Source: Octopus sinensis
Lineage: Eukaryota
Direction of reading: 5' to 3'
DNA: 64,000 nt
Assembly: GCF_006345805.1 (NCBI RefSeq)
Contig: NC_043006.1
Location: 21,018,001-21,082,000 of the forward strand
A program made the position numbers and the translations under genes. Position 1 is the first letter of the stretch. Every line of letters starts with the position of its first letter. The notes under the pieces were generated by a model, which was given only the letters and a program-made list of their open reading frames with translations, was not told the origin of the DNA and did no database searches. Below are positions 1,861 through 60,202 of the stretch, in pieces.

Positions 1861-3647
1861 GGGCAGCTAAAGAGCTGAATGTCCTCATATTTCCTGGGTC
1901 CATTTAGTTTTCTCTGAGAGACCCTCTTACGAGAACAATTCCGTGACATGCTAATTATGTATGTATGTATGTATGTATGTATGTATGTATGTATGTATGT
2001 TTGTATGCATGCATGTATGGTATGTATGTATGTATGTATGTATGTATGTATGTATGTATGTATGTATGTATATGCACAGACCACATATGTATACAAGACA
2101 GGTTTCCACAGATTTTTCGTCATAAATTAATTATAGGTAGGAAACACTGGCCGAATGTGTTTTGGCGTAGAGAGATCGAACTCAGAATTATATGATTACA
2201 TAGCGAACTTCATAGGTATACAACCACAACTCAATCGTAGTCACGTAGCTGGGGAGAGGATGAAATGCCGTCGAACATTTTGGTCCCGTTATTGTATTGT
2301 CTCTGATAACATAGAACCTTCAAAATCAAAAATATTTAAAATTTCGTTTCATAAATGATTTTACAATATCATGTTTTTTTTTTTTCCTTTTCATTTTTCC
2401 TTTCTTCTTGCTATTGTTAATAATGTATAATCTTCAGACGAAAATAATAGGATCCATTATGTCACAGCAATCATTGACAATTGATTGCTATTAAGCTGGT
2501 TTTAAACTAATTGCACAACAAAAACTATTTTATAATTGCTTGTTGATAATGAAAATTTAACTTCCGAAGCAGCTGGAAATATTAGCTGTGAATCCATTTC
2601 CTCAATAGTTTTGTTAGTTTCATTTAACATTTTGAAGCCACTTATCAGTAATTCAACGCTATCTGCTTGCATTTTAAAACACGTCTTCGAAGCGCATATG
2701 TACTTGCTTCACTTTGAATATTAACCTTATACATAATAAACACTACGGCAGCAGCGTATCTGTATGTGTTCGTCGTAAGAAGGTTAGATTACATAGTAAA
2801 AAGACAAAGGAGTTTAGTTCGCTTTGAGACATCAGAGAGGTTTTCTTTTTTCTTTTCTTTTTTTTTTAATATGCAATTACAGTTAACTCCCCAACATGGT
2901 GCTAAATATCGCAGCCAGATGTGCCTCAGATTATAACCTTTTCACTTTAAATACGGACAGAGCTATTAGTTCATGTAGCCTAAAGTACACTTGCATGTGT
3001 TGCTTCTTTATGATGGATATATGTTCAAAATACATACGACGAATGTGTTCGCTGAAGTTATAAACTGGAGTATCAACATTCGTTAAATACATTCATCCTT
3101 AGCAGCCGAGACACAATGCTGTCGAATCACTGGATATCCCAGAATCTCTTGCACTAACGACTCAATTGCATCATAAGCATATATTCGTCGTAAAGGAAAA
3201 GATGTCCTGTGACGAAACATAACAGTGATTAGCATATTTACGTTCGAATTGGCTGGAACGTTTTTGCAATACGCAACTCATCGTTTGGAATCTCGCTGAT
3301 CACTGTGCATATGACGATGTATCATCGGTTGCAACACAGCATGGATCAATGTAGAGTTTGTTCGCTGCTTTATAAACAAGATCATTAACCCTTGTTAATT
3401 CATTGGCCCGGGGATGTTAATTTCTTTGGCTTCCGAGATACAATGATGTCGATCAACCATCAGTACTGGAATTTCCCTGTGCTAATGAATCGAGTGTATA
3501 ATGAACACATATTCGTCAAGAAAGAAAAGCCATTCTCCTGTAACGAAACACAGCAGCAATTTGTATTTTCACGTTCGAATTTACTGGAACGTATTAAAAG
3601 TAAATATGCAAAGTTATCGTAACTACGTTTAAAAATCACAGTTAATA

Positions 3648-18818: not shown

Positions 18819-19209
18819 CTAGCAGTATCGCCCGGCGTTGCTCGGGTTTGTAAGGGAAATAACTATATAAGCATTTTTAGAGATGTAAAGTATAATAGCC
18901 ATCTCAACATGGCTAACCACAAAGGAGGTGGGTGTTACTGTAACTTTTTACGTTCTGAGATTTAATAAATTTTTAGAGAGTTACTTCCCTTATATATGCC
19001 AAAAATGCATTAAAAATGGGAAAAATTGATGGTACGTTTTTTTTAAATCGTAGACTCATCGTAGACGCGCGCTAATACCCAGAAGGGCTCGATATGAATC
19101 ACGACTATAAGATACCCGGTTTGGGTTAAACTGCACCGCAAAATGTGGGAGTAGTTAGGAATCTAAATCGTAGGAGACAGACACACAACTTCACTTTTAT
19201 ATATAAAGA
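18819..19209 (-). mobile_element. Non-autonomous Helitron (~390 bp)
   Basis: Minus strand starts TC, ends CTAG, has a subterminal hairpin cccgagcaacgccggg and sits between A and T with no TSD. Second copy at 50458-50855 (+). Confidence 0.85.
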
Positions 19210-40570: not shown

Positions 40571-40770
40571 GGTCCGTTGGTACCTTTGAACGGCATATCG
40601 GGCAATCAATAATCGACAATTATCTCCGTCACTGGCCTACCGGTATGCTTCTTCCCAGTTGATGTTCAGTCTGTGTAGGTCTTCTTTGAAGGTACTACGC
40701 TATGTCTTCCTTGGCCAGACTCTCCCCCCCCCCTTACCTTCCTGCGGCATCCAGCCCATGGCTGTTTTTG
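40421..40770 (-). mobile_element. RTE-clade LINE 3' end with expanded (AAG)/(GAG)n tail
   Basis: Minus strand PRKT*RSTFKEDLHRLNINWEEAYR*ASDGDNCRLLI matches the RTE C-terminal pattern GRPRKTW...DL...W.EA...A.DR..WR, followed by a stop and an (AAG)n tail. Confidence 0.8.
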
Positions 40771-41086
40771 GAATTTTTCTTTTTTAAATATTTCTCAAGC
40801 TTGATGTTGCAGGAATTGGAATCACTGATAGGAAATGTTCCAAACCAAGGTTTCGACTTGTCTTACGCAACTAACCACTTCGGCCATTTCCTTCTAACTC
40901 ATTTATTGCTCGATCTTATAAAAATATCTGCGCCTAGTTGCATTATAAATGTTAGTTCTAAGTTACACGGTCCGCTGGATTTAGTTCGCGGTCCGCTGGA
41001 TTTCACCCTTCACGGAGAAGGCTCAAATGCAAAATACAGCAAACTTGAGGGTTACGTCGTGAGTAAATTAGCAAATATCTACCATA

Positions 41087-41319
41087 TATTTCTTTACTAC
41101 CCACAAGGGGCTAAACACAAAGGGGACAAACAAGGACAGATAAACGGATTAAATCGATTATATCGACCCCAGTGCGTAACTGGTACTTATTTAATCGACC
41201 CCGAAAGGATGAAAGGCAAAGTCGACCTCGGCGAAATTTGAACCCAGAACGTAACGCCAGACGAAATACGGCTACGCATTTCTCCCGGCGTGCTAACGTT
41301 TCTGCCAGCTCGCCGCCTT
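41087..41319 (-). mobile_element. SINE family C inserted in the SDR pseudogene
   Basis: 12-bp TSD atatctaccata at 41075-41086 and 41320-41331. Confidence 0.95.
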
Positions 41320-42245
41320 ATATCTACCATAGTCGATTCCTCAGTCAAGAACTTACTGAGACGAAAGTCACCATTAACGCCATGCATCCGGGTCTTACAG
41401 GAACAAACGTAAATAACGTAAATGTGAAGAATCCGGTTAAGCGTAATGTCAACATCATAATCCGTCGTTTGTCTGTTTGGTTAGGTCGTTCACTATAAGA
41501 TGCAGCAAAAACCTTGGTTTATATGGCTATCGAAGCCGAATTGGCCGAAGTAACTGGAGAGTATTTCGAAAACGTTAGCATACAAACAAAAGGTTTGTCT
41601 ATTTATTTAATCTTAAATTGTTTCTTGTGGTAAAAAGCTGGAGGATTCCCAAGTCGTGTTTATATTTCTAACGCGGTGGACACTGCCGGATTGAGTGGTA
41701 CTTCCCAGGTGTCGAAACCATACTGATATCTGTTTGGGCAGCTGGTGTTATGCTGGTTGTGAATTTCTTATATTTAAGTCTTGTTATTCGGATCTTTTCG
41801 GTTTGAACGGCAGTTTTTTCTAGCGGTGTCATATGAAATTGTCACCCATAATTATGACCCTAGTATCGATCTATTGCATTTCAATCTATTTTAGGGTTAG
41901 GGTTAAACGAGAATATTTCGAAAACGTTAGCATACAAACAAAAAGTTTGTTTAATTTAGCTCTTGACAAAGAGCAAGTGAGAAAAATGCGGGAAATTAGT
42001 TTCTTAGCTTGCAAAGATTATTTGGATTTACCTGAAGATATAGCGAAGATAGATATGGGAGCTTTGCAGAAAGACAGTGTACAAAAGAAAGAAGATGCCG
42101 ATAAGGGATTTTCGTCGTCCAAAACTGAAACGAAAACAGATTCAGAAAATAGTTGTTGGCATACATCTAAAGCTCCAAGTGAATCATCCGTACCAACAAA
42201 AGCAGTAGAAGAAGAATCATTGGTAGAAGCAGCAGCCACAGCAGT

Positions 42246-42770: not shown

Positions 42771-43308
42771 TGCTGTCACGGCGACAGCATCAGTAGCGTC
42801 AGCTGAAACAGCAGCCACGGAAATTGACGCAGCATCAGCAGAAGTAGCAGAAACCATTAAAGCTGCGACTGCTGAATCAACGAACGTGTCAGCACCTGAA
42901 ATACATACCATTTCCGAGTCAGATTTACCCACTCCACCTTGTTCTTTCACACCTTCTTCACTCGACGCCATTAATAATAAAAACTTAGAGGAGATTGAAG
43001 ACCTTTCTGCTGACGTTTGTTCTTCGACGAACAAAAGCAAAGAAACAGTACAGGAAGCGATTTACAAACCACTGATACTTCCAGAAATTACTGAGTCAAA
43101 CGAACACTACCCACCACTAGATGGCGATTCTAACTTGAATTGCGACCCATCAAACGCTTGTTCGGATCGTACGAGCAGCAATCGCGAGGACTCTCCTTTA
43201 ATTACCCTTGATGACACTGAAAACTCGGATAACCTTCATGAGGAAGAAACGTTTTAAGAAAAAAGACCTCAATTCAATGTGATTAGAAAAGGAAATATAA
43301 AAGAAACG

Positions 43309-43739
43309 ATGTGAGGTATACTTGCCATCTCAATATGGCTAACCACTAAGGGTGGGTGTTACCGTAGCTTGTAGCCCCAGGAGAACATCGTCTCCAGCTG
43401 GCTTTAGGCACACTTTCTGTGCCCTTATGGTATTTGCAAATGGAGGTGATCCCTCCCTCGTCAACCTAAGTGATACGCACGGACGGCAGTTACTAGGTAT
43501 TGACCTGTCGTCGGCGTACGACAATCACCGGTTTTCGATGGAGGGATGTCCCAATGCAAATACTTTAATCGTTTTTCCAGTAACTTTTCGTCACTGATCT
43601 CGAAAAACTGTATGCAAGCAATAATAAATCTCTGAACGAGGTATAAACAGTAACTGTACGACAATGTGAGGTATACTTGCCATCTCAATATGGCTAACCA
43701 CTAAGGGTGGGTGTTACTGTAGCTTGTAGCCCCAGGAGA
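43309..43739. mobile_element. Unclassified non-coding insertion: 355-bp unit plus 77-bp terminal redundancy
   Basis: Direct repeats at 43309-43385 and 43664-43740 (1 mismatch); 10-bp TSD aaaagaaacg at 43299-43308 and 43740-43749. Confidence 0.9.
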
Positions 43740-45735
43740 AAAAGAAACGTTTCTACAAAATTTCTTTCTTCTTTATTGTTCTTTCTCACCACTTAATCGA
43801 ATATATTCTTCGCACAAGACACACACATACATCAACGCACATGTTTATACATACAAATATTCATAGACACTCACATGTAATTTGAAATGTGCACTGGAAG
43901 GTGTGACATGTTACCAAATGTTTTGAGTAAGGTTGATAAGTTCTACACCTCCGCCCTAAGTCTGACGTAGTTTAACTTCGATTTATATGGCTGTTGACCC
44001 TGAATTGACCGAAGTAACTGAACCGGTAATGTTTCTTAGTAATCTTAATTTATAGCAGAAATAATATTTATAATGAATATAATAAAAGTTGACGATTTTT
44101 AAAATCTCTTTTGTAGCCAAATAATACAATATCACATAAGCATTTTATAAGCATTTAATAATGGTTCTTACTTTCCTGGAAACTCGCCGCGTACTAGCAG
44201 CTGATGGCTCGCGGACCTGCATCAGTCCGCTGACCACCACTTTGGGCAGCATTGGGTTAGATAACTTTTGTTATTACATAAGCCGATAGGCCCTGCTACA
44301 CAACTCAATGTATTCCACACACTTCGTCAACACCACGTCTTCTGTGTTTCTTCCACACACACACACACTTGCATACCTAAATAGCTGCATGTATATATAT
44401 ACATATATACATGCAAACACATACATTTATGCATACACATATGTATGTTATTATTTACGCATTGGATTGGAAGAATTCTTTTATTGTCAAACAAAACTTC
44501 ATGCAATATTTTAAAAAATTTCTGAGTTCATGCTCTGTCGCGATTTCCTTTACCCCTCATCCGCCTGAAAGTAGAGGCCAAGTATTATGGCGGGGCTTGG
44601 GCGATGTAATCGTATAATCCCCTCCTTTCAACATTGCTGGCCTTGTAACCAAATTAGAAATGAGTTAGCACACCTGGAGAAAATTGCAACAGCATTTTGT
44701 CCGTCTTTACGTTCTAAACTCAAATTCCGTCGAGGTCGACTTGGCTTTCATGCTTTCGGTGCCGATGAAATAAGTACCAGTCAAATACTAGGGTCGACGG
44801 AATCGATTTCCCCCTTCCCTCAAAATCTGCTGGCCCTGTGTCAAAGTATGAAACTATTTTATGATGATTATTTTCCAACTCTTCTGATCGTACGTTTTGC
44901 ATAGTCAGTTTGTAATTGCATTTTTGCTTTTTCATTATATCCATAACAAAATAAATTCGTTGCCCAAATATAAAAGCAAAGCTATTTTTCCTTCTTCGGA
45001 GAAGTATTTTCTGTCGTAATTTTATCATATTCTTGATTTAAACGCAAGTCTTCCTGATTCCATCGTCTTTTGCAATAAATTTTTGAATGACGGGTTTCGC
45101 TTCCAGATAGAATAAGACAATAGTTCTTGGAAGGAAAAATGAAATAAAGATTTTTTCCATATGAATGAAGCTTCCAATTAATGAAATGAAAAGCGGTAAA
45201 TATTTATGACTGTCTTCAGTATAATAGAGAAATATGAAAAGCATTCTGTTCCTAATCCCAATCGATATTGCATCCAAAATTCTACTGTGGTCTGTTGAGT
45301 GACAGAACTATTAAGATGTATGTCTTGAAGTATTTCTTTTAAGCGTGTACCTTCCCTGTTCAAATCCTGCCGTAAAATATGACAATTTTTTGGCATGTAA
45401 AAATAGACATGCCAAGTGTTTACGACCTTTTGCGCATGTGCAAATTCTTATTTAGTTAGCTCTCAAATAATATTTTTTTGGAGATTCGCTGTTGATTAAT
45501 TTGATGTCATAAAGGAAATCTGAGAATTTGTACCCTTGTTGACGATAAAATGGCCTGTTCATAACCAAGGACTTCAGTTTTAACCCTTCCTTATTCAAAA
45601 TACCTTTCTACAAATAATCATCATGAGATATCCCATTCTCTTTTCTCGATAGGTAGTGGAAATATTGTAAAAGCTAACGAGAGATGAGTTAAAGTTGCCC
45701 CTGAAGTAAAGATCACCCAAATATATTTTTCATAA

Positions 45736-50457: not shown

Positions 50458-50855
50458 TTTTTATATATAAAAGTGAAGTTGTGTGTCTGTCTTCTACGAT
50501 TTAGATTCCTAACTACTCCCACATTTTGCGGTGCAGTGTAACCAAAAGCGGGTATCTTATAGTCGTGATTCATATCGAGCCCTTCTTGGTATTAGCGCGC
50601 GTCTACGATGAGTCTACGATTTAAAAAAAAATTACCATAATTTTTCCGTATTTTTAATGCATTTTCGCTCGGTTTATATAAGGGAAGTAACTCTCTAAAA
50701 ATGTATTATTAAATCTCAGAACGTAAAAAGCTACAGTAACACCCCCCCCCTTTGTGGTTAGCCATATTGAGATGGCTATTATACTTTACATCTCTAAAAA
50801 TGCTTATATAGTTATTTCCCTTACAAACCCGAGCAACGCCGGGTGATACTGCTAG
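50458..50855 (+). mobile_element. Non-autonomous Helitron
   Basis: Reverse complement of 18819-19209; hairpin cccgagcaacgccggg then CTAG|T. Confidence 0.85.
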
Positions 50856-54839: not shown

Positions 54840-55849
54840 AGAGAACTACCCAACCAACACCACTAAAACCAACCCTATGGTCGCGATGACATCTTTATAC
54901 TCTGGCCCCACCAGGTAGCTGTCCAAGTGCTGTTAGATCATGTGAACTCAATAAAGCCATCCATACAGTTTACAATGGAAAAAGAAAAAGGCAATCAGCT
55001 AGCATTCCTGGAAGTATTATTAACACACACCAAGTATGGATTCAAGACATCCATATACTGCAAGCCGACCTTCACTTCAATTCCCACCATCCATACAGTG
55101 TAAAGAGAGGGATTCCTTAGTGCCTAAAGCATCGTGCAAAGAATATAAGTAGCGACCGTGATACACATCACGAAGAAATGATCAAGCTAAGTAACAATCT
55201 ATTAAGCAACAACTTCCCCAAAAACATACTATCCACTCCAGTTATGAAGAAAAGAGAGGACGAAACCAATAAACGGTCCACAGTCTGTCTACCCTATGTG
55301 AAAGGCCTCTCCGAAAAGGTATAAAAGATATGCGGCCCATATGACATCAGGACACTATTCAAGAGTAATACAACACTTTGCAAATATCTCCTTCGAGTAA
55401 AACCAACAATAAAAAATATGACCAAAGACTGCGTGAATCCATCCCATGCAGCTGTGGTAGGTTATACAAAGGTGAAACATGCCGCCCCCTCAAAATAAGG
55501 GTAGACGAACATCGCAAAGCTGTGACACGAGATGTTGATAAGTCGGGTATAGCTGATCATGTATGGAAAAATGGAGACCCCCCCCCCTGTGGGATGACAT
55601 TAAAATAATAGACAGAGAACACCACTAGAAAATACGAAGACTAAAAGGAGCAGCACATATGCTAGGACACCACAACCTCCTAAGCAGACCGAATGCAGAT
55701 ATGAATAGCATATGGGAACCGGTATTAAGGAAGGATAGCAAAATATTAGATTTATAAGCCCTAAAATTCACTCCATAATTGCCCAAGCAGAGGTTAAGAG
55801 CGTCGGCTGCTAACCCCAAGATTCCGAGTTCGTTTCCAAGCAGTGACCC

Positions 55850-57219: not shown

Positions 57220-57985
57220 ATAGATATATACAATTAGATGAACTGAGAACTGAGATTAATACTAATCAAAAGACATTACCCAATATCATTAATATATGAT
57301 GGCATTAAACGAGCAAAGGAAATAGATATACGAACATTAAGGCAAGTCAACCGAAATACTAAACCAGACTTTAAAATACTCCCATACATCTCCGCACATA
57401 ACCCTCGAAACAATAAAGCTTTCAACATTATCGTCAAAAATCGAATCATCCTTACAGGAAATAAAGCAATAAACAAAATTTTACGCTCAAACAAAATTAT
57501 TAAAAGCAAAATGCAACCGAAATCATTGAAAAAAATATTAACCTGCGCAAGACTATATCCATTAACAACAAAATCAAAAGCAAAAAAATGTGGTCGTCCT
57601 AACTGGAACATGCCCCCACCTTTTGGAGGGTTCAGAGTTCCACTTTAAACAAGGTGAAATATTTTTAGATTAAATTTCACCTGTGTCTCGGAAAACCTGA
57701 TCTATGCTATTACCTGCTTAGGGTGCGGTAATCAGTATATTGGCCAAACAAGAATATCACTCCGTCGAAGACCCACTCTCCACAAAGAACAAATCCGCCA
57801 CCCCCAATACAGATAGATACATGTCAGTGAACACATAGAAATGTGTGCTAGGAAACTTAATCCTAATTTCCTAATTTTCCCTTTCTATCGATGTTCATAG
57901 AATACCTCAGTACGACAAAGAATGAATAAAGAGGTAAATTTCATCAATAAATATCTTCCACAACTCAATATGAACACATAACATA
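57220..57985 (+). mobile_element. Neptune-type PLE fragment (thumb, Cys-rich linker, GIY-YIG)
   Basis: YPISLI..GIKRA, QPKSLKKIL, KKCGRPN/TCPHL, FTCVSENLIYAITCLGCGNQYIGQT..SLRRR..LH..HVSEHI. Confidence 0.88.
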
Positions 57986-58426: not shown

Positions 58427-59789
58427 GCTTGATATTCTCATCAATAATGCAGCGATTGGAGTAACTGATAATGAAATGTCCAAACAAGGTTTCGACTTGA
58501 CTTTCGCTACAAACCACCTCGGCCATTTTCTGTTGACCCATCTATTGCTCGATCTTATGAAAAAATCTGCACCCAGTCGCATTATAAATGTTAGTTCAAA
58601 AGTGCACGAATTTGTTCACGCTCCGCTTGATTTCACCCTTCACCGAGAAGACTCAAATATAAAATACAGCAAACTTGAAGGCTATGCTGCGAGTAAATTA
58701 GCTAATATTTACCATAGTCGATTCCTCAGTGAAGAACTTACTGGGACGAAAGTCACCATTAACGCCATGCATCCGGGTTTTGTACGAACAAACATTATGA
58801 AAAGAAATGTGAAAGATACTTGTAAACGTTTGGTCAACATCGTATGCGCCTACACATCTGTTTGGTTCGGTCGTGCACCAGAAGATGCAGCAAAAACCTT
58901 GGTTTATATGGCTGTCGACCCCGAATTGACCGAAGTAACTGGAGAGTATTTCGAAAACGTTAGCATACAAACTAAAAGTTTGTCAAGTTTAGCTCTTGAC
59001 AAAGAGCAAGCGAGAAAGATGAGGGAAATTAGTTTCTTAGCTTGCAAAGATTATTTGGATTTACCTGAAGATATAGCGAAAGTAGAAGAAGTAGGAGCTT
59101 TGCAGGAAGAGAATGTACAGAAGGAAGAAGAAGGTACTCACGAGGGATTGGCTGAAACGAAAACTGAAACGGAAACTGAAACGAAAGCAGATCCAGAAAA
59201 TAGTTGTTCGAATATATCTACAACTCCATGTGAATCATCATTTCCACCAAAAGCAAGCAAAGAAGAAGCATCAGTAGCAGCAGCAGCAGCCACAACGGTT
59301 GCAGCAGCAGCAGCCACAACGGTTGAAGCATCAGCTGAAACAGCAGCCACGGAAATTGACGCAGCATCAGCGGAAGTAGCAGAAACCATTAAAGCTGCGA
59401 CTGCTGAATCAACGAACGTGTCAGCACCTGAAATACATACCATTTCCGAGTCAGATTTACCCACTCCACCTTGTTCTTTCACACCTTCTTCACTCGACGC
59501 CCTTAATAATAAAAACTCAGAGGAGATTGAAGACCTTTCTGCTGACGTTTATTCTTCGACGAACGAAAGCAAAGAAACAGTACAGGAAGCGATTTACAAA
59601 CCACTGATACTTCCAGAAATTACTGAGTCAAACGAACACTACCCACCAGCTGAGGTCGATTCCAACTTGAATTGCGACCCATCAACTGCTTGTTCGGATC
59701 GTACGAGCAGCAGTCGCGAGGACTCTCCTTTAATTACCCTTGATGACACTGAAAACTCGGATAACCTTCATGAGGAAGAAACGTTTTAA
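58427..59789 (+). CDS. Terminal coding exon of an RDH11-14-like short-chain dehydrogenase/reductase with a long acidic C-terminal extension
   Basis: Polypyrimidine tract and ttccAG acceptor (58425-58426). Open frame (R)LDILINNAAI...FATNHLGHFLLT.LLLD...SRIINVSS...YAASKLAN (YxxxK)...HPGFVRT...G.YF, then ~240 aa rich in E/A/S/T, TAA at 59787-59789. The TGxxxGIG exon(s) were not found. Confidence 0.9.
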
Positions 59790-60202
59790 AAAAAAGACCT
59801 AAATTGATTGTAATTAGACAACTTTTGTAGAGACACTGACCTCTCCACTCAATGCAACATGTTCCTCACACAACATATACATACACGCACACACTTATAT
59901 TTATACATGTAAATATGCACACACTCGCGCACACGTACATACACACATATATATGTATATATGTATGTTTCAAAAGGTGCACTGGAAGGCGTGACATGTT
60001 ACCAAATGTGTTGGGTAAGTTACCAAGTTCCACAATAACCCTTATTATTCCAGTTAAGCCTGCGTGCGAGGTCAGCGCAAATATATAAAAAGAAAACAAA
60101 TAACATGACCTGTATGATATGCTTTACGCAACGTACACATGTTCAGTAAGCCTACAACCGTTATAACACAATGCATTGGACTTCATCAGCAATAAGCTTT
60201 CA

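What the first reader, a model, noticed from the sequence alone, without database searches (positions are those of the whole stretch)
43309..43739. 355-nt rod-folding unit with 77-nt terminal redundancy and 10-bp TSD: candidate circular-RNA/retrozyme-like element
Seen: one 355-bp monomer plus a repeat of its first 77 bp, a 10-bp TSD, no convincing ORF, no poly(A) tail and no tRNA head. The interior forms a long imperfect hairpin (43430-43563): gtatttgca/tgcaaatac, atccctccctcg/cgatggagggat (11/12), gtgat/atcac, tacgc..gacggcag/ctgtcgtc.gcgta, plus small hairpins (gccat/atggc, ccac/gtgg, ggaga/tctcc, ggcaca/tgtgcc). Known: LTR/TRIM integrases give 4-6 bp TSDs and need a PBS/PPT, which I do not see. 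Greater-than-unit-length copies with longer TSDs are typical of metazoan non-LTR retrozymes copied from circular RNA. I find no canonical hammerhead core on either strand. Inference: a retroposed ~355-nt circular RNA that may use a different or unknown self-cleaving motif.
Basis: partly seen in the sequence, partly recalled or inferred. Interest (0 to 1): 0.8.

Follow-up and report, generated by a model that had tools for sequence, protein, structure and literature searches.

The report
Damaged hammerhead retrozyme copy, Penelope-mobilised family
This insert is a damaged copy of a family of at least hundreds of 355-base jumping sequences that carry a hammerhead self-cutting RNA motif and are likely copied into the genome by Penelope-type jumping genes, probably from RNA circles; the kind is known, but another mobile element repeatedly sits right beside that motif.

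Summary
The 355-nt unit, 77-nt repeat, 10-bp target duplication and rod are real. The guess of an unknown ribozyme is wrong. Sister copies carry a type I hammerhead on the minus strand at the tip of the rod. This copy has three core changes (U4C, A13U, loop III), so it was missed. The genome holds 636 exact intact cores of one variant and at least six subfamilies (65-100% alike), with covariation that includes a C3-G8 to U3-A8 swap. Of 156 loci, 143 have the RNA 3' end at one of two sites 47 nt apart, 173 and 220 nt past the predicted cut. Seventy carry an inverted arm, and targets are AT-rich. This is the Penelope-like (PLE) signature. No coding PLE with this terminal repeat was found in four families. 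Cleavage, transcription and circles are untested. Verdict: a new member of the metazoan non-LTR retrozymes. Unexpected extra: a 1.8-kb element with only a zinc-knuckle ORF ends at one motif in hammerhead stem I in 20 of 33 ends, probably by site-specific insertion.

The parts
43299..43308 (+). left target-site duplication AAAAGAAACG
   Evidence: D11
43309..43663 (-). one full 355-nt unit; RNA sense is the minus strand; 43309 is fixed end site 1 (predicted start of reverse transcription)
43425..43568 (-). long rod = extended stem I of the hammerhead
43470..43528 (-). degenerate type I hammerhead with stems I-III; predicted cut between 43482 and 43481; changes against intact copies at 43513 (U4C, shared by a sub-lineage), 43492 (A13U) and 43485 (loop III UGCA to UGCC); C.A at 10.1-11.1 (43507/43494) is subfamily-wide
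43520..43532 (-). motif ACCGGUGAUUGUC at the outer 5' arm of stem I; in other copies the insertion site of element T (unoccupied here)
43617..43663 (-). 47-nt 'tail' between fixed end site 2 (43617, unit position 309) and site 1
43664..43740 (-). second, 5'-truncated round of the unit (76-77 nt)
43740..43749 (+). right target-site duplication
   Evidence: D11

Best explanation
The insert is a degenerate copy of a dispersed 351-360-nt non-coding family that carries a type I hammerhead motif on its minus strand and is likely copied into AT-rich sites by the reverse transcriptase-endonuclease of Penelope-like elements acting in trans, probably from circular RNA. SHOWN in sequence: the unit, tandem arrays, the hammerhead with covariation, two fixed RNA-3' ends 47 nt apart, scattered 5' ends, inverted arms that end at the same two sites, 8-15-nt TSDs, AT-rich and (TA)n targets, copying straight through the predicted cut site, and intact young PLE ORFs in the genome. 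INFERRED: read-through transcripts of partial tandems are cut at GUC, probably as dimers because stem III is two pairs plus a palindromic loop; monomers are ligated to circles (about 0.6); a PLE protein nicks the target and starts cDNA synthesis internally at site 1 or site 2; priming on both target strands gives the inverted arms. This copy started at site 1, ran 355+77 nt and later gained about eight private changes, so its own ribozyme is probably dead.
For: Hammerhead. Rfam Hammerhead_1 full-length on a subfamily C copy, 28.4 bits, E 1.2e-5. 636 exact matches to an intact-core pattern against 0 for the reversed control. On 74 sequences, 92.6% of cells pair against 85.3% shuffled and 18-49% slid; pair 3-8 is C-G in 51 and U-A in 17; loop III stays self-complementary through double changes. 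Ends: 143 of 156 loci end in two windows covering 9.6% of the unit. In the set picked by the hammerhead pattern alone it is 17 of 20. 70 of 156 have an inverted arm, and 59 of these 70 end at the same two sites. 96 of 156 have an unbroken piece longer than one unit; periods between consecutive hammerheads are 351-360 in 12 of 13 cases, 337 in one copy with a deletion. 13 of 14 cDNA pieces that reach the cut site in the 3'-picked set do not stop within 5 nt of it. Intact RT plus GIY-YIG ORFs exist. One young PLE family has its own hammerhead, also with C4, and two 3' ends, 15 short and 16 tailed of 31. Literature: two internal RT starts bounding a tail, AT-rich cutting, both strands extended and hammerhead dispensable in vitro (PMC11167929); inverted arms, tail and microsatellite bias (bioRxiv 2021.04.23.441226); PLEs proposed as retrozyme mobilisers (PMC7229834; bioRxiv 2026.07.22.740005).
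Against: No coding PLE with a homologous terminal repeat among four families examined, so the partner is unidentified. Rfam missed the intact-core subfamily A copy L018 and eight whole loci; the one hit is below the gathering score of 34. Pair 10.1-11.1 is non-standard in 45 of 74 sequences and 13 of 44 subfamily A cores have C4, which may lower activity. Two of the five covariation measures did not exceed the shuffles (115/500 and 72/500), copies are related, and rows were picked with a pattern that required GAAA and UC. Sets A-D and U were picked with queries that begin or end near the two sites, which inflates 143/156. Clean TSDs of 8 nt or more were found in only 26 of 143 loci. 19 of these 26 overlap the element end by 1-7 nt, whereas PMC11167929 reports starts not homologous to the cut DNA. 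The tail is 47 nt, not 30-40. L030 joins an A unit to a B unit (14.8% apart), which one circle cannot give. No RNA-level evidence.
Confidence: 0.78

Rival explanations
1. Same family and same PLE helper, but no circles: templates are uncut linear read-through transcripts of partial tandems, lengthened by template jumps, and the hammerhead is a weakly used relic.
For: In PMC11167929 unprocessed RNA is the main substrate and hammerhead mutants still insert. A C4 sub-lineage spread here (13 of 44 cores). L030 is an A+B heteromultimer, and within-locus rounds differ by 3.7% on average against 5.8% between loci.
Against: The core and the 3-8 pair are kept or compensated across subfamilies 65-85% alike. 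Unit length stays 351-360 with a seamless joint. Published animal retrozymes accumulate as circles (PMC7229834, section 14). 48 of 56 tandem pairs are closer than the between-locus median.
Confidence: 0.12
2. The copies are only 5'-truncated tail ends (pseudo-LTR stumps) of a coding Penelope-like element not yet found.
For: All insertion features are PLE-like. Only about 150 of 5029 GIY-YIG candidates were scored. Earlier scan notes reached this verdict in other genomes.
Against: Upstream of the hammerhead the sequence returns to its own 3' end after about 130 nt in every subfamily, and 96 of 156 loci exceed one unit. 0 of 85 non-inverted 5' flanks (700 nt) match four PLE proteins, and the 10 shared flank pairs are inverted arms, other repeats or element T. 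PLE ORFs near 7 loci are separate insertions.
Confidence: 0.05
3. A SINE-like parasite of an ordinary LINE (RTE, CR1 or L1), primed by microhomology, with inversions from twin priming.
For: TSDs of 8-15 nt, 5' truncation, and 1-7-nt overlap of target and element end in 19 of 26.
Against: Twin priming gives a variable outer end for the inverted arm (established knowledge of L1), but here 59 of 70 end at the two fixed sites. There is no poly(A) or simple-repeat tail of its own. Two start sites 47 nt apart. LINE 3' ends were not searched.
Confidence: 0.03
4. One reading: a circular-RNA element with an unknown self-cleaving motif.
For: This copy has no canonical core and no Rfam hit. The fixed ends are not at the hammerhead cut.
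Against: The family has a hammerhead. No conserved ribozyme-like motif was recognised at the two ends, and internal RT initiation explains them (PMC11167929).
Confidence: 0.02

Closest known systems
Metazoan non-LTR retrozymes with type I hammerheads (Cervera and de la Pena 2020, PMC7229834; mussel 350-390 bp, axolotl 330/350 bp)
   Same: Unit size, type I hammerhead at the tip of a self-paired unit, tandem copies, GC 45.6%, TSD longer than 4 bp, no ORF, PLEs in the same genome.
   Different: C.A at the base of stem II in most subfamilies (axolotl HHR_Amex2 has U.U there), a U3-A8 subfamily and a C4 sub-lineage. Mostly dispersed, truncated and inverted copies. Expression and circles not shown. 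In the passages read, the paper reports neither fixed double ends nor inversions ('inverted' occurs 0 times).
EN+ Penelope-like elements: Poseidon PAc (PMC11167929), Penelope/Neptune/Naiad insertion structure (bioRxiv 2021.04.23.441226), PLE hammerheads (PMC4209133)
   Same: Two 3' ends bounding a tail downstream of a hammerhead, inverted 5'-truncated arms, partial tandems, AT-rich and microsatellite targets, palindromic loop III, U3-A8 core variant (known from Schistosoma PLEs).
   Different: No RT-EN ORF; full-size hammerhead rather than a minimal one; 47-nt tail; short target homology at the start; no homologous pLTR found.
Vertebrate retrozymes derived from PLE pLTRs (bioRxiv 10.64898/2026.07.22.740005)
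   Same: Non-autonomous, co-occurring with PLEs, as monomers, dimers and multimers.
   Different: There the link is sequence homology to pLTRs in Xenopus. Here it is the insertion signature, with no homologous pLTR found and a lineage that diversified to 65% identity as a free unit.
Tx1-clade target-specific elements and their passengers (Tx1 into Tx1D; Tx1-Mar and SINEU-3 into Mariner-N4; PMC4494074); HAL1 ORF1-only elements (recalled, seen only in a search listing) - for element T
   Same: Insertion at one motif inside another mobile element, 13-16-nt TSD, tandem re-insertions sandwiching a TSD, zinc-knuckle ORF.
   Different: The target is the stem I arm of a retrozyme hammerhead. No ORF2 was found, so clade assignment is untested.

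Membership tests
non-LTR retrozyme | type I hammerhead in the repeat unit | tested here: met
   family level; this copy's core is degenerate
non-LTR retrozyme | unit of about 170-400 nt in dimers to multimers | tested here: met
   periods 351-360, one 337; L014 five units plus, L142 3.2 units
non-LTR retrozyme | non-coding, GC under 50%, highly self-paired | tested here: met
   GC 0.456; circular folds 61-66% paired, z -2.0 to -7.8 on 40 shuffles
non-LTR retrozyme | TSD longer than 4 bp | tested here: met
   8-15 nt in 26 of 143 loci; shorter or low-complexity ones not counted
non-LTR retrozyme | no PBS or PPT | not tested
   no tRNA comparison was run
non-LTR retrozyme | self-cleavage in vitro | not testable with these tools
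   needs transcription assay
non-LTR retrozyme | accumulates as circular RNA | not testable with these tools
   a ligated circle has the same junction as a genomic tandem; only contigs of unrecorded library type were available
canonical type I hammerhead (this copy) | CUGANGA and GAAA core | tested here: not met
   CCGACGA and GUAA at 43514-43490
canonical type I hammerhead (family) | G10.1-C11.1 closing pair | tested here: not met
   G-C in 17 of 74 (subfamily B), non-standard in 45 of 74; 636 exact C.A cores
canonical type I hammerhead (family) | 3-8 tertiary pair, stems I-III, palindromic loop III | tested here: met
PLE-type mobilisation (works like) | two 3' ends bounding a tail | tested here: met
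   67 and 76 of 156; tail 47 nt
PLE-type mobilisation (works like) | inverted 5'-truncated arm with the 3' end outermost | tested here: met
   59 of 70
PLE-type mobilisation (works like) | AT-rich or microsatellite targets | tested here: met
   mean AT 0.87 in the 10-nt flank; 57 of 143 in (TA)n
PLE-type mobilisation (works like) | RT start not homologous to the cut DNA | tested here: inconclusive
   19 of 26 TSDs overlap the nominal end by 1-7 nt; the true start may lie a few nt off
autonomous Penelope-like element | RT plus GIY-YIG ORF attached to the repeat | tested here: not met
PLE-derived retrozyme | homology to a pLTR of a coding PLE | tested here: inconclusive
   none in four families; most PLE families unsampled
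TRIM or solo LTR | fixed TG..CA ends with 4-6-bp TSD | tested here: not met
   variable 5' end, 8-15-nt TSD
Tx1/HAL1-like (element T) | sequence-specific target with TSD | tested here: met
Tx1/HAL1-like (element T) | APE-RT partner of the Tx1 clade sharing the 3' end | tested here: inconclusive
   no such ORF seen beside T in eight extended loci; no genome-wide search left

The most novel reading that the evidence does not exclude
A three-tier parasite chain. Penelope-like elements mobilise an old, free-standing hammerhead retrozyme lineage from two fixed internal start sites. The retrozyme is in turn the dedicated target of a 1.8-kb, ORF1-only, Tx1/HAL1-like element that inserts at the outer 5' arm of hammerhead stem I. 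Its target duplication rebuilds that arm, so an intact ribozyme is left about 50 nt behind the new element's poly(A) signal, where it could cut out the element's transcript from retrozyme read-through RNA. I found no report of a retrotransposon aimed at a ribozyme.
Probability: 0.55. Interest if true: 0.7.

Novelty: new member of a known kind. Interest (0 to 1): 0.45.

Why it matters
Who mobilises animal retrozymes has been argued from co-occurrence and pLTR homology. This family shows the mechanistic footprint of PLE reverse transcription (two starts, tail, inverted arms) on a unit with no coding body. That makes a direct test possible with an intact young PLE from the same genome. The natural core series (C.A, U.U or G-C at 10.1-11.1; C3-G8 against U3-A8; U4 against C4) is a ready panel for hammerhead tolerance and dimer rescue. 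Element T would add a ribozyme to the known targets of site-specific retroelements. The window copy itself is probably inert.

Tried and rejected
Twister, pistol, hatchet, hairpin and HDV-like readings of the two end regions: considered by eye from recalled motifs, none fitted, no Rfam support.

Rfam on eight whole loci gave only simple-repeat and chance hits.

The retrozyme copies beside PLE ORFs in L097 and L087 looked like pLTRs. They are separate insertions in (TA)n, and the L097 PLE family has its own unrelated hammerhead. Two further PLE families had no homologous end. L307 has a PLE-like C-terminus (Hydra-like by recall) with its own hammerhead-like motif, separated from the retrozyme by element T.

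A pile-up of 5' ends at the hammerhead cut, expected for cut linear monomers, was not seen: 1 of 14. Within-locus against between-locus distance did not decide between circle and multimer.

Expression: no RNA holder listed. Contigs of four runs of unrecorded type from two coded organisms cover the unit, and in run X1 they mostly show the intact letters at 43485, 43492 and 43513; this shows presence only. Contigs over the flank match the paralog at window 59432-59821, not the filled copy. The paralog lacks the insert but differs at the site, so it is not a clean empty site. An empty-site check in larger runs was not obtained.

Literature searches: retrozyme/hammerhead/octopus, 2 of 3 terms; hammerhead/U3-A8/Penelope (41); cephalopod + hammerhead ribozyme (62); Penelope/non-autonomous/hammerhead/circular RNA/tail (71); G10.1/C11.1/mismatch (76); Tx1/sequence-specific/target/Penelope/HAL1 (90); retrotransposon/targets/hammerhead ribozyme/site-specific insertion (91); HAL1 (98). 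None listed this family or a ribozyme-targeting element. The host lineage in those terms is my guess, not established here. Repbase and Dfam could not be searched, the supplement of PMC7229834 could not be read and PMC5785218 is not held; any of these may bear on novelty.

Full report
Observation. The window has a 355-nt unit at 43309-43663, a second round of 76-77 nt with one mismatch, and an exact 10-bp duplication on both sides. Both strands fold better than shuffles, z -4.0 and -5.2. Rfam finds nothing of weight in this copy. The insert lies 51 nt after the stop of a 194-aa frame. That frame is a 95% duplicate of a gene end at window 59432-59821, which lacks the insert but differs at the site.

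Family. The own genome gave 3397 first-look candidates, of which 40 were scored. Further searches gave subfamilies B (about 85% alike), C (76%), D (about 70%), and E and F (64-84%). Arrays of five and three units exist. Periods between consecutive hammerheads are 351-360 nt in 12 of 13 cases, and 337 in a copy with a deletion.

Hammerhead. Aligned copies show on the minus strand GUACG-CUGANGA-C-AGG-hexaloop-CCU-A-GAAA-C-UGCA-G-UC-CGUGC at the tip of the rod. In one search, 23 of 70 segments matched the strict C3-G8 pattern. Most of the rest are subfamily B with UUGACAA (U3-A8) and G10.1-C11.1, or a sub-lineage with C4 to which the window copy belongs (13 of 44 subfamily A cores). The window copy also has GUAA for GAAA and UGCC for UGCA, which lengthens a rival helix across the core. 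An exact pattern for the intact C.A variant has 636 matches against 0 for the reversed control. Rfam Hammerhead_1 matches a subfamily C copy over the full model at 28.4 bits, below the gathering score of 34, and misses an intact A copy. On 74 distinct 59-nt segments, 92.6% of cells pair (shuffled 85.3, slid 18-49), with 129 double changes (shuffled 48). Pair 3-8 is C-G in 51 and U-A in 17. Loop III changes among UGCA, UGCG, UCGA, UCGG and CCGG while staying self-complementary. Pair 10.1-11.1 is non-standard in 45. Two measures that count pair types did not beat the shuffles, the rows are related, and all but the window row were picked with a pattern that fixed GAAA and UC. U3-A8 and palindromic loop III with dimer activity are described for PLE and metazoan hammerheads (PMC4209133, abstract to start of methods read). 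A U.U mismatch at the base of stem II is described in axolotl (PMC7229834, passages and section 14 read).

Ends. I mapped 156 loci after dropping 15 ids that overlapped other loci. The end that is 3' on the hammerhead strand falls near unit position 1 in 67 and near 309 in 76; the two windows cover 9.6% of the unit. Queries for five of the six sets began or ended near these sites. The set picked by the hammerhead pattern alone still gives 17 of 20, and the outer ends of inverted arms, which were not selected, give 59 of 70. Of 86 non-inverted 5' ends, 82 fall elsewhere. Flanks are 87% AT, and 57 of 143 are (TA)n. Clean duplications of 8-15 nt were found in 26 of 143, and 19 of the 26 overlap the element end by 1-7 nt. 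The two sites lie 173 and 220 nt past the predicted cut, not at it. Among 25 loci picked only by their last 76 nt, 14 cDNA pieces reach the cut and 1 stops within 5 nt of it, so templates were uncut or re-joined. Rounds within a locus differ by 3.7% against 5.8% between loci, with exceptions such as the A+B joint in L030. This does not separate circles from multimers.

Mechanism. A purified PLE protein starts reverse transcription at two internal sites that bound the genomic tail, cuts AT-rich DNA, extends both strands and does not need hammerhead cleavage (PMC11167929, main text and start of methods read). PLE insertions show partial tandems, inverted arms, a 30-40-bp tail and microsatellite bias (bioRxiv 2021.04.23.441226, passages). 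The family matches these points except for tail length and the short target homology. The genome has 147 scored GIY-YIG matches and several intact 775-883-aa RT-EN frames. One family is 98-100% identical across 39 full-length scored copies and has its own hammerhead with C4 and two 3' ends. None of four PLE families shares the retrozyme's sequence, and none of 85 non-inverted 5' flanks encodes PLE protein. The unit therefore behaves as a free, non-autonomous element and not as a stump, though the helper is unidentified. Cleavage, ligation and transcription are inferred from published retrozymes (PMC7229834; bioRxiv 2026.07.22.740005, abstract to discussion read; there only 1 of 9 dimers cleaved).

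Element T. Five of 156 loci had the same foreign 3' end joined just 5' of stem I. It belongs to a 1.8-kb element with a zinc-knuckle frame (Pfam zf-CCHC, E 4e-4, just under cut-off; Atlas look-alikes are CCHC proteins, score 0.93, commonest in Mollusca) and an AATAAA near its end. In L291 it sits between two halves of a retrozyme with a duplicated target. A search with T's own last 249 nt gave 225 candidates, 40 scored, 30 loci. In 29 non-overlapping loci, 20 of 33 ends run into a retrozyme of subfamily C, D, E or F at that motif, 6 run into another T across the same motif, and 7 run elsewhere, mostly into partial copies of the motif. Without the two discovery loci the counts are 19, 5 and 6 of 30. 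Several target subfamilies, duplications and tandem re-insertions favour repeated site-specific insertion over spread of one composite. Tx1-type elements are known to target other transposons in this way (PMC4494074, passages). No ORF2 was seen in eight extended loci, so the clade is a guess.

Verdict. The insert is a probably inert copy of a new family of a known kind, the metazoan non-LTR retrozymes, likely moved by PLEs. The added value is the PLE footprint on a free retrozyme, the natural core variants, and element T. Searches for prior reports are listed under Tried and rejected; repeat databases and one supplement could not be seen.

Noticed in passing
L291:2218-4030; L312-L341: Element T: 1.8-kb ORF1-only (zinc knuckle) repeat whose 3' end joins the retrozyme at the stem I motif in 20 of 33 ends and another T in 6, with 13-16-nt target duplications.
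   Followed up: partly
window 18883-18946 (+) and 50728-50791 (-): Two 62-64-nt pieces of subfamily B's 3' end, both inside the same other repeat with shared flanks and an inverted pair AGGGAAATAACT/AGTTACTTCCCT. A retrozyme stub was probably captured by another mobile element that then spread.
   Followed up: partly
L097:2100-5900 (-); L103-L132: Young intact PLE family (RT plus GIY-YIG, 775-aa frame) with its own hammerhead CCGAAGA (C4, U.U at 10.1-11.1, palindromic stem III) and two 3' ends; L100 has CUGAAGA.
   Followed up: partly
L087 about 2970-3010; L091-L099: Second intact PLE family (780-883-aa frames). Its 3' region has repeated CCAAT/TGACGTC-like blocks and, by eye, a hammerhead-like stretch with a U3-A8 core.
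   Followed up: no
window 57247-57969 (+) and 55070-55249 (+): Degenerate PLE fragments; the first belongs to a third family (1287 candidates) with an unrelated 3' end.
   Followed up: partly
window 40690-41498, 43980-44030, 58430-58990; 42900-43290 against 59432-59821: Pieces that look by eye like short-chain dehydrogenase paralogs (no Pfam hit for the one frame tested) and a 95% duplicated gene end: a local tandem duplication, with about 2.5 kb interrupting one paralog.
   Followed up: no
L030:1134-1976: One insertion joins a subfamily A unit to a subfamily B unit head to tail, which implies a template switch or a mixed transcript.
   Followed up: partly
L307:3030-3750: Degenerate PLE-like C-terminus (Hydra-like by recall, no Pfam hit) followed by its own hammerhead-like motif, then T's 3' end, then a retrozyme.
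   Followed up: no
L012:2336-2491: A near-perfect 150-nt palindrome (MITE-like) that gave spurious miRNA hits.
   Followed up: no
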